Assembly (NCBI RefSeq): GCF_009914755.1
Contig: NC_060936.1
DNA length: 64,000 nucleotides
Origin: the human T2T-CHM13v2.0 reference genome, Homo sapiens
Reading direction: 5' to 3' (one strand)
Position 1 is the stretch's first letter. The number at the start of each line of letters is the position of its first letter. The notes under the pieces were generated by a model. It was not told where the DNA came from, searched no databases, and saw only the letters and a list, made by a program, of their open reading frames with translations. Below are positions 18,491 to 36,233 of the stretch, in pieces. Position numbers and translations under genes: made by a program.

Positions 18491-18640
18491 ATTATTTATC
18501 CAGGAGATGTAAGCAGAGACCTGGGTGAAGACTGTAGGCTTCCTGGAGACATTACAGCCCCGGCTGGACACAAAGCTGGTCACTCCATGGACAGAATACT
18601 TGCCATTCACCAAGCAATGGAGGGGGCCCCCAGAGTCACC
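18491..18640 (-). CDS. CELA1: CELA1 exon 7 ([13 protein letters not shown]...SWINN; catalytic Ser206)
   Basis: ctgcag|GGT GAC TCT GGG GGC CCC...AAT AAT|gtgagt. 150 nt. Contains the GDSGGP serine-protease motif. Confidence 0.97.
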
Positions 18641-27220: not shown

Positions 27221-28666
27221 TACTCTAGCCTTAGGGAATGCCCCATAATTCTGTATGTACTCTAGGTTGTTTCTTGGCCCCCTGCCTTTATTCATGCCGT
27301 TCCCTCCCTCTGAATGTCTTTTCTCCTTTTTGCCTGGCCTATTCCTATTTGCCCCTCAGGACCCACTACAAATTCTAGTTTCTTGGGGAAGGAAAGTCTT
27401 TTCTGGCCCCAGTAGGTAGAGGTAGGTACCTACCCTTGGGCTTCCATATCACCTGTGCACATCCTGATTATTAACACTTAACCACATTGTATTACAATGT
27501 TCTATTGTATGTCTGTGCCTCTGGTTTCTTTACTTGACACTGTTTGATCCATCTTTGTAACCTTAGCACTTAGCACAATGCCTGGCATATAGTAGATATA
27601 TAATGAATAGTTGTTAAACTGCATTAAGAAATCTGGGGTGGGGCATGGTGGCTCACGCCTGTATTCCCAGCACTTTGGGAGGCCAATGTGGGAGGATCAC
27701 TTGAGCCCTGGAGTCTGAGACCAGCCTGGGCCACAAAGCAAGACCCCATCTCTATATTAAAATAATAATAATAAAAAAAGCTTAAAAAGAGAAATCTGTA
27801 AGATAGTTTATGGCTGATTGATCTTGTCAAAATAGAGGAAGGTTATATTTGTTATATATAAGCTATTATAAAATTATTTTGTGCACTTTCCCCTATCAAA
27901 CTCACCTGTACATACTGCCAGAAATATCACTGGGGTAAAGGGATGGTGGTAGAGGAACTGCAAGAGAAGTAGGACTGATAGGTAAGAGGGAGCAGGGTAC
28001 TGCTTATACAGCATCACAACCACCTGTCCAGGCTCAGCTGCATCGCTGCCATTAAAAAATCTAGGTAACAAATTTGGCTGGGCATGGTGGCTCACGCCTG
28101 TAGTCCCAGCACTTTGGGAGGCCAAGGCGGGTGGATCACCTGAGGTCGGGAGTTCGAGATCAGCCTGAGCAACATGGAGAAACCCTGTCTCTACTAAAAA
28201 TACAAAAAATTAGCCGGGCGTGGTGGTGCATGCCTGTAATCCCAGCTACTTGGGAGGCTGAGGCAGGAGAATTGCTTGAACCCAGAGGCGGAGGTTGCAG
28301 TGAGCCGAGATCGTCCCATTGCACTCCAGTCTGGGCAACAAGAGCAAAACTCCATCTCAAAAAAAAAATCTAGGTAACAAATTCTAAGAACACACACATA
28401 TACCAACAACAACATATAAATGTTGGGCCACGTACAAACTTTGAAGTGAGGGCATCGAGCAAGATCAATTTTAAGGTTCCTTTCAACTTTGAGTTTCTGC
28501 ATGTGTAGAATTACCAGCACAGGATCATTCTCACTTAGACGCCAGAGTAGAAAATTGAGTCTGTGTAGGACTAAGAGTAAGTGTCGAATAGGGAGGTGAG
28601 GAAGAGGGGTGGAGGGATAGGCAGAGAGTGGCGGGACCTGGGGTGGGACCCCCTGCAAATGTTCAC

Positions 28667-28812
28667 CTGGCATCCAGAGCGAACTCCATCTCCACCAGCA
28701 CACACCATGGTGTTCTTCACAGTGGAGCCCCAGTAGGAGGAGCTGGAGCAGATGGCGTAGTCCACAGAGGGCAGGTAAGCCTGCTGCAGGGTCTGGGCCA
28801 GCTGCCCATTGG
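28667..28812 (-). CDS. CELA1: CELA1 exon 6 ([48 protein letters not shown])
   Basis: gttcag|CC AAT GGG...TGC CAG|gtgaac. 146 nt. Peptide present in ORF 28571..29089(-). Confidence 0.97.
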
Positions 28813-29214
28813 CTGAACAGGACACACGGCATTGGCAGTCAGCTCCAGATGTGGTCCAGCAGAAAAACCTTCCACCCCTGCCACACCTTCCCAAACTCTC
28901 GTGAAAGCTGAGCTCAGGGCAAACTCCTTCTCTCTCCCTGTTGCATGTGGTGGATCCTCTGTCTTCTCTCTTTATATGGCCGCACAGGACCCTTCCCTCA
29001 GGGAGGCAGCCTTGCTTACTGTACCTAGGCTCCAAGCCACCAACCCTACTCCTGCTTCTTTTCACTCGTGGATAACTTAGTTGCACCATGGAATGGCCTT
29101 ATTTGTGGATGATTTATCTGTCTGTTCTGTTTGCTCCTGCAAGCTCCATGGAGCAGAAATGGGATTGTGCATGCTTGTTTCCATTTCTTTCTTTCTTTTT
29201 TTTTTTTTTTTTGA

Positions 29215-32414: not shown

Positions 32415-32951
<537 letters not shown>

Positions 32952-34600: not shown

Positions 34601-34683
34601 CTGAGAGGGCCAGGAATTCCTCCCGGCCTCAGTCCCTCCGACTACGCGGGCATTGGTTTCCGGAAGGTCCTGGGTGCTGTGTC
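34601..34683 (-). CDS. CELA1: CELA1 exon 2 (propeptide [12 protein letters not shown] plus mature N-terminus [15 protein letters not shown])
   Basis: cacaaag|GA CAC AGC...TCT CAG|gtgggt. 83 nt. R-VVGG activation site. Confidence 0.97.
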
Positions 34684-35428
34684 CTTTGTGGGGCAGAAGA
34701 AAAGTGAGTGATGACTAAGCATGGGGTCAGCCAGGGGTAGGGGTGGGGGGTGGCGATTGTGCTTTGAGGAATGTTAGCCTTGTCTGCAAATTCACAGTTC
34801 CTCTCTAACGAATGAGGGGCCCAGCTGTGAGTTCTCTGAGCCCCTTTTGAAAACAGGGGTGCCTGGGTGCCTTCTGTTTCCCCCAGGTGTTCCCAGAACT
34901 CCGGCATGCTATGAAGGACCTCTCTCAAACCACCAGGCTAGGCCCCAGAGGCTCCTTGTGGTCTCCTCTTTGCTCAAGATCACCCTTTGGCCTGAAGAGA
35001 CCCCCCCCCACTCTTTGACCCCCACCAGCCCCCTAATGCTTTGGCAAGATTCTCCAGGGTTCAGGGCCTGCAGTGCACACCCCAGCCAGGCACCTGCTGA
35101 GGAAGTCCTCCTGTCAATGGGGGTGGTGGGGAAGCCCAGGGACCCACCCCACTACCAGATGGGGCTTCTCTCTGCTTTGTGGCCCAGGGACCTGCCACCC
35201 AGAGGGGCCTGAATAGCCAGTGGCCCTGACCTTTTCTATCTTGGCCTCCAGGAGAGTAAAGGACGCTCTGCAGGCAGAGCGTCCCACCTGCCCTGGGACA
35301 GGGTGCTGGCCTGGACTTAGGGAAAATTTGCTGACCTTCCTGCCCAAGTCCCCCTCCCTATAGACCTCAGGCCACATGATCCACTTACCATAAAGGACCA
35401 GGGTTGCGAATGGACCATATCCACTTAC

Positions 35429-35444
35429 CATAAAGGACCAGCAT
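35429..35444 (-). CDS. CELA1: CELA1 exon 1 coding part (MLVLY-G, truncated signal peptide)
   Basis: aacATGCTGGTCCTTTATG|gtaagt. 16 nt, phase 1, in frame with exon 2. Gives the known 258-aa human protein. Confidence 0.92.
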
Positions 35445-35491
35445 GTTGCCGATGGAGTAGACCACTGCCTTCTTGCTTGGACCAAGCCCTC

Positions 35492-35497
35492 TTTATA
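35492..35497 (-). promoter_or_regulatory. CELA1: CELA1 TATA box (TATAAA)
   Basis: tttata on the + strand, about 50 nt upstream of the ATG. Confidence 0.85.
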
Positions 35498-35554
35498 CTC
35501 CTCTTAGCAGCAAAGCTGACTGTCTTCTTGCCAACTGGCAGGGCTGAGGGTGCA

Positions 35555-35640
35555 AGGCAGGGAAAATCACAAGTGACATGGAAATACAAATGAAAATATT
35601 TCTTTTCAAGTAAACTAATGTATCTGTTATTCAAAGACAG
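35555..35640 (-). promoter_or_regulatory. CELA1: Remnant of the elastase-I pancreatic acinar enhancer (PTF1 A-element, with a B-element-like sequence upstream)
   Basis: Minus strand reads ATGTCACTTGTGATTTTCCCTGC: E-box-like CACTTG at 35570-35575 plus TC-box TTTTCCC at 35560-35566. This resembles the rodent elastase-I A element as I recall it (CACCTG...TTTTCCC). Confidence 0.7.
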
Positions 35641-36233
35641 AACAAGGCCAGGGCTGAATTAATCATCTGCTTTTAATTGAAAAGCATCCAACAAACTCTT
35701 TTTCAGAAATAAGATGGAGAACCAGGGCTGGTTTTTCTCTAAGGGAGCACCCCTTGTCATCCATCACTCTCTCGTTGTCCTCAGTGGCACCATAAATGCA
35801 GAGACTTGCCCTGTGCACTAGCAGCTGGAGGCCAGGGGGATAGTGGAAGAGGGGGGAGTGGTTAGCAAGGGCAAGGAAGACACAGCAACTCTCTCTGCCC
35901 AAAGAGGGAGATGGCACATGCCCCCAGGATGCAGGCATAGGTGTAAATGCAGACACAAAAGCCAAATAGATGCAGTGGAGATAATTCTGGGGGAGGAAAG
36001 TACTGAGAAACAGGCTTGGGCCCTCTCAGATGGAGAGCCAAGAAGGGGCTCCCAGAGGAGAATATGAGGCAGGGTAGAGGAGGGGATCCTTGGGATGTGA
36101 AGACAGTCTGAGGGCTATGAGGGTAGATGGAGGGTGGAGGGCAGAGGGAGAACGAGGGTAGGAGCCGAGGTTCCTGCAGGAGATGAAAGGCTTTGTTCAT
36201 CACAGTTCGTAGAGGAGAGAGAAGGGAGTTGCG

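What the first reader, a model, noticed from the sequence alone, without database searches (positions are those of the whole stretch)
35379..35444. 23-bp duplication in CELA1 exon 1 creates a premature donor, truncates the signal peptide and leaves the ancestral exon end in intron 1
Seen: an exact 23-bp direct repeat (minus strand CTGGTCCTTTATG|GTAAGTGGAT) at 35419-35441 and 35379-35401 gives two identical 5' splice sites 40 nt apart. The first donor gives MLVLY-G (16 nt, phase 1, in frame). The second gives 56 nt (phase 2, frameshift). Just before the second copy the sequence reads TTC GCA ACC CTG GTC CTT TAT G = F-A-T-L-V-L-Y-G. Knowledge (from recall): other mammalian elastase-1 proteins start with a signal of the form MLRFLVFATLVLYG. 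Inference: a template-switch insertion replaced the RFLV codons, so this allele makes either a zymogen with only about four hydrophobic N-terminal residues (poorly secreted) or a frameshifted mRNA. An intact-signal allele may segregate in humans and be miscalled as clustered SNVs/indels by short-read pipelines.
Basis: partly seen in the sequence, partly recalled or inferred. Interest (0 to 1): 0.85.

Follow-up and report, generated by a model that had tools for sequence, protein, structure and literature searches.

The report
Duplicated splice donor shortens CELA1 signal peptide
In the human elastase gene CELA1 a 23-base copy of the end of exon 1 and its splice signal sits 40 bases upstream of the original, so the annotated protein has lost 8 of the 14 residues that exon 1 encodes in monkeys and other mammals, leaving an unusually short secretion signal.

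Summary
An exact 23-nt direct repeat lies on the minus strand at 35441-35419 and 35401-35379. It gives two identical ATG|GTAAGT donors 40 nt apart. RefSeq uses the first donor, which gives a 258-aa protein beginning MLVLYG. From the same start codon the second donor shifts the frame and stops in exon 2. Just before the second donor, intron 1 still reads FATLVLYG. That equals residues 7-14 of macaque, snub-nosed monkey and proboscis monkey CELA1.

Human has 4 uninterrupted uncharged residues in the signal core. Of 123 relatives with a normal-length N-terminus, 119 have 9 or more. The change is therefore derived and arose after the split from Old World monkeys. I could not see ape sequences.

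The short signal itself is known: a review calls it the shortest annotated human signal peptide (PMC8745461). I found no paper that describes its cause.

The idea of a segregating intact allele has no support. "Poorly secreted" is untested, and published reports of CELA1 in human lung matrix and serum weigh against it. One new point: an ATG at 35431-35429 spliced at the second donor gives an open 267-aa frame that keeps the relic signal.

The parts
35419..35441 (-). Repeat copy 1: codons 2-5 (LVLY), the first base of codon 6 and the first 10 nt of intron 1. Contains the donor that RefSeq uses (exon ends at 35429).
   Evidence: exact 23-nt repeat; donor GTAAGT, in-frame 258-aa CDS; NM_001971.6 is the only annotated transcript.
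35379..35401 (-). Repeat copy 2, inside intron 1: relic of the ancestral exon-1 end (LVLY + G) with the ancestral donor (exon-like end at 35389).
   Evidence: FATLVLY reading, and frameshift if spliced from AUG1; the same residues in three Old World monkeys.
35402..35418 (-). 17-nt spacer between the copies. TTCGCAACC (35410-35402) = relic codons F-A-T. It is preceded by CA and by TGGTC (35417-35413), a probable remnant of the L-V codons.
   Evidence: for the sequence; comparison with P0002 residues 5-9; the L-V remnant is inference. A weak likeness to the 5'UTR (10 of 12 nt; 92 of 5000 shuffles reach the score) comes.
35442..35444 (-). Annotated start codon (AUG1), context GGCAACATGC (A at -3).
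   Evidence: Models P0027 and P0034 read the conserved 5'UTR through as ...VVYSAGNM, so this is the ancestral ATG.
35429..35431 (-). Second ATG (AUG2), formed by the last 3 nt of annotated exon 1. It is in frame with the relic and, through the second donor, with exon 2. Context TCCTTTATGG (T at -3, G at +4).
   Evidence: 804 nt with no internal stop, 267 aa, starting MVSGYGPFATLVLYG and identical to the RefSeq protein from exon 2 onward.
35429..35485 (-). Annotated exon 1 (41-nt 5'UTR without an ATG, plus 16 coding nt).
   Evidence: Given annotation.
35492..35497 (-). TATAAA upstream of exon 1.
   Evidence: read directly; not tested.
34601..34683 (-). Exon 2: rest of the signal c-region (HS), the activation peptide and the R|VVGG activation site. 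Its acceptor is shared with other species.
   Evidence: Read-through models P0003 and P0013 show the same intron-end translation LLPHK before GHSTQ.

Best explanation
The first exon of CELA1 was rearranged after the human lineage split from Old World monkeys. Just after the start codon, 23 nt were copied in: the last 13 nt of exon 1 plus the first 10 nt of intron 1, donor included. A few ancestral bases were lost in the process. The copy carries a full-strength 5' splice site, so the exon can now end 40 nt early. Spliced there, as RefSeq annotates, the mRNA stays in frame but encodes 6 residues in place of the ancestral 14. [quoted passage not shown] The old exon end (F-A-T-L-V-L-Y-G codons plus the old donor) is stranded in intron 1 as a second, identical donor. 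If that donor is used with the annotated start codon, the frame shifts and translation stops in exon 2. That is upstream of five exon junctions, so nonsense-mediated decay is expected. The rest of the gene is an intact S1 protease. Shown: the repeat, the reading frames, the relic, the intact N-terminus in monkeys and other tetrapods, and the intact protease domain. Inferred: the direction and mechanism of the event (microhomology-guided templated insertion or replication slippage among the repeated TGGTC words), its date, and its effect on secretion.
For: Repeat and donors. Frames. Relic FATLVLYG matches 8 of 8 residues (7-14) of P0002, P0004 and P0006, directly followed by GTAAGT. Derived state: 170 relatives were fetched. 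139 of them start with M and have a recognisable activation site. 123 of those have that site at residue 24-31 (mode 26, 60 sequences); human has it at 18. Longest run free of D, E, K, R, H, N, Q, P, G after Met1: human 4; 119 of 123 have 9 or more, and the lowest is 5, in a mis-modelled protein. The gene is otherwise healthy: 239 of 258 residues match Rhinopithecus. The script called 11 human-lineage changes, 10 once the Met1-versus-T column (an artefact of aligning the shortened N-terminus) is set aside, against 8 Rhinopithecus-lineage changes, using 15 outgroup mammals. The motifs TAAHC, YDIALL and GDSGGP are present. Pfam PF00089 matches exon 3 (E 9.3e-11) and exon 7 (E 7.3e-11). The locus is single-copy. 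Context from the literature: CELA1 has the shortest annotated human signal peptide, 8 residues, against a usual h-domain of 7-15 (PMC8745461, passages). CELA1 is a pancreas-specific transcript in macaque (PMC3496626, passage) and is not expressed in human pancreas (PMC4961393, passages).
Against: No ape, monkey or other outgroup DNA could be reached, so the ancestral nucleotide sequence, the mechanism and the date are inferred from proteins only. Apes and human are hidden inside one 90%-identity cluster (P0004, 74 members). I saw no RNA data, so use of the first donor rests on the RefSeq annotation alone. Established splicing work (recalled, not read here) suggests that of two strong identical donors the one nearer the acceptor tends to win, which would favour the relic donor. 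One lemur model (P0019, Propithecus, 257 aa, activation site at residue 17) also has a short N-terminus. I take it for a gene-model artefact but did not test that. 29 and 23 candidates of untold source were left out.
Confidence: 0.8

Rival explanations
1. Two-step origin. First came a roughly 40-nt tandem duplication spanning the 3' half of exon 1 and the donor. It would be harmless, because the first copy still made a full exon 1. Later a 24-nt in-frame deletion between short direct repeats in the upstream copy, plus small changes at the junction, produced today's structure.
For: The copy spacing is exactly 40 nt, which equals the inferred ancestral coding length of exon 1 (14 residues in phase 1). 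The loss from the protein is exactly 8 codons. The word TGGTC recurs in the 5'UTR, the spacer and both copies, giving substrates for slippage.
Against: It needs two or three events where one templated insertion-deletion suffices. The spacer does not align without gaps to what a clean tandem duplication predicts: a CA insertion and a changed base are needed (inference). Without outgroup DNA neither route can be ruled out.
Confidence: 0.2
2. The secreted human enzyme comes mainly or partly from a different mRNA and start codon than annotated. Splicing at the relic donor (35389) with initiation at the ATG at 35431 gives a 267-aa precursor that starts MVSGYGPFATLVLYG and keeps 7 residues of the old hydrophobic core.
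For:: open frame of 804 nt, identical to RefSeq from exon 2 on; uninterrupted run of 7 against 4. The two donors are identical. CELA1 is reported in human lung matrix and in serum (PMC10906462; PMC5078036), which is hard to square with a 4-residue core if the review's 7-15 range holds.
Against: AUG1 lies 13 nt upstream in a better context (A at -3, against T at -3), so scanning ribosomes should mostly start there and meet the frameshift. RefSeq lists no such transcript. No RNA, ribosome-profiling or N-terminal peptide evidence was seen. Seven residues with no positive n-region is still a weak signal.
Confidence: 0.12
3. The short-signal structure is only one human allele, and an intact-signal allele segregates.
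For: Two published variants lie 4 nt apart inside the first copy. One is rs117443541, Y5S (PMC5739789). The other is rs143199509, annotated as splicing in exon 1 (PMC4450850). By strand logic they fall at window 35431 and 35427. Clustered calls can be a sign of a mis-aligned structural allele.
Against: Two single-base variants are not evidence of a structural allele. The short form is the RefSeq Select transcript on CHM13 and the form in UniProt (PMC8745461). PMC10906462 says predicted loss-of-function variants are rare. No paper found in 9 searches mentions such an allele.
Confidence: 0.04
4. The repeat is a chance match or an assembly artefact.
For: None found.
Against: 0 of 100 shuffles give 2 matches. 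The first copy is confirmed by the cDNA-based RefSeq exon. The second copy encodes 8 of 8 monkey residues.
Confidence: 0.01

Closest known systems
CELA1 / pancreatic elastase 1 of other mammals (pig, rat, mouse, macaque; PDB porcine elastase, e.g. 1b0e and the 266-residue chain 8b04)
   Same: Same gene and exon structure. Exon 7 matches porcine elastase at E 2.1e-26. Exon 6 is 92-100% identical to mammalian CELA1. Catalytic motifs and the activation site are present.
   Different: Human exon 1 encodes 6 residues instead of 14. The pre-pro segment is 18 residues instead of 26. A second, relic donor lies in intron 1.
Evolutionary silencing of human ELA1 in the pancreas (Tani 1987; Rose and MacDonald 1997, both known to me only as cited in PMC4961393)
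   Same: Another change in the same gene on the human lineage. Macaque still shows pancreas-specific CELA1 (PMC3496626), so both changes post-date the split from Old World monkeys.
   Different: That work concerns enhancer and promoter mutations. The exon-1 duplication acts on splicing and the signal peptide. I could not read those papers, so I cannot say whether they noted the exon-1 difference.
Small duplications across an exon-intron boundary that create tandem competing 5' splice sites (a known class of disease and evolutionary mutations; recalled, not read here)
   Same: A copied donor gives two identical sites. Which one is chosen decides the frame.
   Different: Here the upstream site is in frame and fixed in the reference gene. 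The copy was placed near the start codon, so what it removes is signal-peptide residues.
Signal-peptide h-domain shortening mutants (PMC8745461)
   Same: The hydrophobic core is shortened. The review says such shortening is the main cause of severe transport defects in reporter studies.
   Different: This is a natural state of a reference gene whose product is nevertheless reported outside cells.

Membership tests
Chymotrypsin-like elastase 1 (peptidase S1, Pfam PF00089) | Trypsin-fold domain detectable by profile | tested here: met
   exon 7 E 7.3e-11 and exon 3 E 9.3e-11 to PF00089, both above the curated cut-off; orthologue P0004 E 1.7e-70.
Chymotrypsin-like elastase 1 (peptidase S1, Pfam PF00089) | Catalytic His, Asp, Ser motifs and the R|VVGG activation site | tested here: met
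   the translation contains TAAHC, YDIALL, GDSGGP and NARVVGG.
Chymotrypsin-like elastase 1 (peptidase S1, Pfam PF00089) | Orthology to CELA1 rather than CELA2 or CELA3 | tested here: met
   the best 97 of 108 hits are named CELA1, pancreatic elastase or hypothetical protein, and the first CELA2A-named hit is rank 98; the top PDB matches are porcine elastase 1.
Classical cleavable ER signal peptide | Hydrophobic h-domain of about 7-15 residues (PMC8745461) | tested here: not met
   the longest uninterrupted run after Met1 is 4 (LVLY), and the best 9-residue Kyte-Doolittle mean is 0.81, against a median of 3.18 in 123 relatives. This is a crude measure; SignalP was not available.
Classical cleavable ER signal peptide | Positively charged n-domain | tested here: not met
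   the human form has no residue between Met1 and the hydrophobic run. Most mammalian relatives listed have R or H at position 3.
Classical cleavable ER signal peptide | Actual translocation and cleavage | not testable with these tools
   Indirect evidence only: CELA1 reported in human lung matrix (PMC10906462) and in serum by MRM (PMC5078036).
Functional U1-type 5' splice site (both copies) | Match to the consensus MAG|GTRAGT | tested here: met
   both copies read ATG|GTAAGT, matching 8 of 9 positions (the consensus is recalled).
Functional U1-type 5' splice site (both copies) | Use in vivo | not testable with these tools
   The first donor is used in NM_001971.6. No RNA data for the second. 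No unusual RNA structure around the two sites (z = 0.72).

The most novel reading that the evidence does not exclude
Human CELA1 is the target of an anti-emphysema antibody programme validated mostly in mice, which have the full signal peptide. It may be produced very differently from the mouse enzyme. Either most transcripts use the relic donor and are destroyed, or the secreted enzyme arises from the unannotated second ATG plus the relic donor (267 aa, MVSGYGPFATLVLYG...). In both cases the annotated N-terminus would be a minor or non-secreted form.
Probability: 0.12. Interest if true: 0.7.

Novelty: new member of a known kind. Interest (0 to 1): 0.5.

Why it matters
CELA1 is being pursued as a drug target in emphysema and alpha-1-antitrypsin deficiency (PMC10906462). 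Most functional work uses the mouse, whose precursor is 266 aa with a normal signal peptide. The human precursor has what a review calls the shortest annotated signal peptide in the proteome (PMC8745461). The 23-nt copy explains how that came about. It also shows that the gene carries two equally strong donors, and the choice between them decides between a protein and a frameshift. That makes three questions directly testable: how much productive CELA1 mRNA human cells make, how the protein reaches the matrix, and whether variants in the first copy (Y5S, donor +2) shift the balance. Together with pancreatic silencing, this is a second change on the human lineage in one gene, and it could be dated with ape genomes.

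Tried and rejected
Ape status. Two of three protein word searches returned no separate human or ape entry, because 90% clustering hides them under P0004. The DNA collections on hand hold no primate genomes, so no outgroup DNA alignment was possible.

Literature. Nine searches found no description of the duplication. Tani 1987, Kawashima 1992, Rose and MacDonald 1997 and Talas 2000 are not in the library, and PMC1447606 is not held. One of them may well describe the exon-1 difference. Supplements are closed. I therefore could not see the body of Table 1 of PMC10906462 (CELA1 variant frequencies; not in the held text), the loss-of-function allele list of PMC3868571, or the serum peptide list of PMC5078036.

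RNA structure as a way to favour one donor: none found (z = 0.72).

A longer duplication reaching into the 5'UTR: only a weak 10-of-12 likeness (92 of 5000 shuffles). I rejected it as the main explanation because the spacer matches the monkey coding residues better.

My first hydrophobic-run measure was broken up by S and T residues. I replaced it.

Gene decay: rejected (the two lineages show similar numbers of changes).

Full report
**What is in the sequence.** Read on the minus strand, the CELA1 start region is: a 5'UTR ending GGCAAC; the ATG at 35444-35442; then CTGGTCCTTTATG|GTAAGTGGAT (35441-35419); a 17-nt spacer ATGGTCCATTCGCAACC (35418-35402); and the same 23 nt again (35401-35379). 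The repeat finder reports one family of two exact 23-nt copies spaced 40 nt apart, and nothing else in 35000-35900. With up to 3 mismatches the pattern occurs only at these two places in the 64-kb window, and 0 of 100 shuffles reach 2 matches. The 191 nt around exon 1 are single-copy in the whole T2T genome.

**Reading frames.** Splicing the eight RefSeq exons gives 777 nt, that is 258 codons plus a stop. The protein begins MLVLY, then a G codon split across the first junction. All eight exons have canonical splice sites. NM_001971.6 is the only annotated transcript.
- Ending exon 1 at the second donor (35389) adds 40 nt. From the annotated ATG the frame then shifts, and translation stops after 36 codons at nt 111, inside exon 2 and upstream of five more junctions. 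By the established rule this should trigger nonsense-mediated decay.
- Bases 35410-35389 read F-A-T-L-V-L-Y and the first base of G.

**Relatives.** No tool takes a spliced protein by reference. I therefore used a natural stop-free stretch of 175 aa (28574-29098, minus strand) that contains exon 6, and scored only the exon part. That search gave 108 hits, nearly all named CELA1. A second search with the N-terminal 60 residues of hit P0004 gave 171 hits, of which 120 were listed. In all, 170 proteins were stored.
- Macaca mulatta P0002 and Nasalis P0006 start MLRFLVFATLVLYG, and Rhinopithecus P0004 (266 aa) starts MLHFLVFATLVLYG. The same pattern runs through placentals, marsupials, reptiles, birds and amphibians.
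- 139 of the 170 start with M and have a recognisable activation site. In 123 of those it lies at residue 24-31 (mode 26, 60 sequences). In human it lies at 18.
- The longest run after Met1 without D, E, K, R, H, N, Q, P or G is 4 in human. It is 9 or more in 119 of the 123. The four lower values (5, 6, 7, 8) include obvious model errors such as P0118, which reads the intron end LLPHK.
- The relic FATLVLYG equals monkey residues 7-14, 8 of 8.
- Models that read through the 5'UTR (P0027, P0034) show that the sequence just before the ATG is conserved. The annotated ATG is therefore the ancestral one.

Human has the derived state, and it arose after the split from Old World monkeys.

**What I could not see.** Human and ape proteins never appeared as separate entries. 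The database is clustered at 90% identity and human is 239/258 identical to P0004, so they sit inside that 74-member cluster. No primate DNA is reachable with these tools. I cannot say whether chimpanzee, gorilla, orangutan or gibbon share the duplication.

**How it arose (inference).** A 14-residue exon 1 in phase 1 implies 40 coding nt. In human the distance from the ATG to the relic donor is 56 nt, a net gain of 16.
- A plain tandem duplication of 40 nt would give 80 nt, so something was also lost.
- The spacer holds TGGTC, then CA, then the F-A-T codons. TGGTC fits the L-V codons that precede F-A-T in monkeys. Only the R-F codons have left no trace.
- The simplest account is one break-and-repair or replication-slippage event. 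The end after the first two codons primed on the downstream CTGGTC word, copied about 20 nt across the donor, and rejoined with one or two untemplated bases.
- The word TGGTC occurs in the 5'UTR, the spacer and both copies, which favours such slippage.
- A two-step route, with a 40-nt tandem duplication followed by a 24-nt in-frame deletion, is also possible. The spacing of exactly 40 nt speaks for it.
- A weak likeness of the spacer to the 5'UTR (10 of 12 nt; 92 of 5000 shuffles) does not change this.

**State of the rest of the gene.** The catalytic motifs and the activation site are present. Exons 3 and 7 match Pfam PF00089 above threshold. Exon 7 matches porcine elastase 1 structures at E 2.1e-26. 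Against 15 outgroup mammals the script called 11 changes on the human lineage. One of these is the Met1 column, an artefact of aligning the shortened N-terminus, which leaves 10. The Rhinopithecus lineage has 8. There is no sign of decay. Two human-lineage changes hit columns that are invariant in all 15 outgroups and in the monkeys that cover them: W to R at residue 44 and R to Q at residue 243.

**Function.** A review of ER targeting states that CELA1 has the shortest annotated human signal peptide (8 residues), that h-domains are usually 7-15 residues, and that shortening the h-domain is the main cause of severe transport defects (PMC8745461, passages). On that basis the annotated human N-terminus is a poor signal.

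Even so, published work reports the protein outside cells:
- PMC10906462 reports CELA1 in the extracellular matrix of human lung next to elastin, and complexes with alpha-1-antitrypsin in lung homogenate (passages).
- PMC5078036 reports CELA1 peptides in human serum by targeted mass spectrometry (passages).

Antibody specificity, complex formation after lysis and leakage from cells are caveats, and the peptide list is in a supplement I could not open. 'Poorly secreted' therefore remains a hypothesis.

CELA1 is a pancreas-specific transcript in macaque (PMC3496626). It is not expressed in adult human pancreas, which is attributed to enhancer and promoter mutations (PMC4961393 citing Tani 1987 and Rose and MacDonald 1997). 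Two separate changes therefore hit this gene on the same lineage.

The last three bases of annotated exon 1 form an ATG (35431-35429).
- It is in frame with the relic codons and, through the second donor, with exon 2. The frame is open for 804 nt and encodes 267 aa, starting MVSGYGPFATLVLYG and identical to RefSeq from exon 2 on.
- Its uninterrupted hydrophobic run is 7 residues.
- Its context (T at -3, G at +4) is weaker than that of the first ATG (A at -3), which lies 13 nt upstream. It would therefore need leaky scanning.
- The two donors are identical from -13 to +10, so no sequence score separates them. No RNA structure distinguishes them either (z = 0.72). Recalled splicing literature suggests that the acceptor-proximal of two strong donors is often preferred, while the cap favours cap-proximal sites. 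Only RNA data can settle which is used.

**Variation.** Two published variants lie in the first copy.
- rs117443541, T>G on the plus strand, Y5S (PMC5739789). This can only be the middle base of the TAT codon, window 35431. It also removes the second ATG.
- rs143199509, A>G, annotated as a splice variant of exon 1 within the GT of the intron (PMC4450850). By strand logic this is donor position +2, window 35427.

I infer nothing about their bearers. They show that variation in the first copy exists. They do not show a structural allele. PMC10906462 states that predicted loss-of-function variants are rare, the commonest at 0.03%. PMC3868571 lists CELA1 among genes with biallelic loss-of-function alleles, with the details in a closed supplement.

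**Novelty.** The 258-aa protein and its 8-residue annotated signal are in the databases and have been remarked on. Nine literature searches found no account of the duplicated donor, the relic exon end or the second ATG. The four papers most likely to hold one (1987-2000) could not be read. The kind of event, a micro-duplication that creates a competing donor, is well known. I therefore rate this a new member of a known kind, of moderate interest because of the drug-target context and the direct tests it allows.

Noticed in passing
window 35429-35431 (minus strand), with 35389 as exon end: An ATG formed by the last 3 nt of annotated exon 1 is in frame with the relic signal codons. Spliced at the second donor it gives an open 267-aa CELA1 frame. 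The published Y5S variant (rs117443541) would remove this ATG.
   Followed up: partly
window 35427 and 35431: Two published single-base variants fall 4 nt apart inside the first repeat copy. One is at donor +2 (rs143199509, PMC4450850). The other is the middle base of the Y5 codon (rs117443541, PMC5739789). I could not tell whether they are independent real SNPs or reflect alignment trouble around the repeat.
   Followed up: partly
CELA1 residues 44 and 243 of the 258-aa protein (exon 3, 32559-32659, and exon 7, 18491-18640): Two human-lineage substitutions at columns that are invariant in 15 of 15 outgroup mammals. W to R at residue 44: W also in all three monkeys. R to Q at residue 243: R in Rhinopithecus, V in the macaque isoform, gap in Nasalis. 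Whether apes share them, and what they do to the enzyme, is unknown.
   Followed up: no
window about 35555-35575 (minus strand), roughly 60-80 nt upstream of the TATAAA at 35497-35492: The sequence CACTTGTGATTTTCCCTGCC looks like a bipartite E-box plus TTTCCC element of the kind bound by the acinar factor PTF1 (recalled). Its E-box differs from the preferred CACCTG. This may be one of the silencing changes credited to Rose and MacDonald 1997 (cited in PMC4961393).
   Followed up: no
protein P0019 (Propithecus coquereli, UniRef, 257 aa): This lemur model also has a very short N-terminus (MLLPGHSTQ..., activation site at residue 17). It is probably a gene-model artefact that borrows the intron-end reading LLP, but an independent exon-1 change was not excluded.
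   Followed up: no
window 28574-29098 (minus strand): Exon 6 (146 nt) lies inside an unusually long stop-free stretch of 175 codons that runs well into both introns. I used it as a search handle and saw no sign that the flanks are coding.
   Followed up: no
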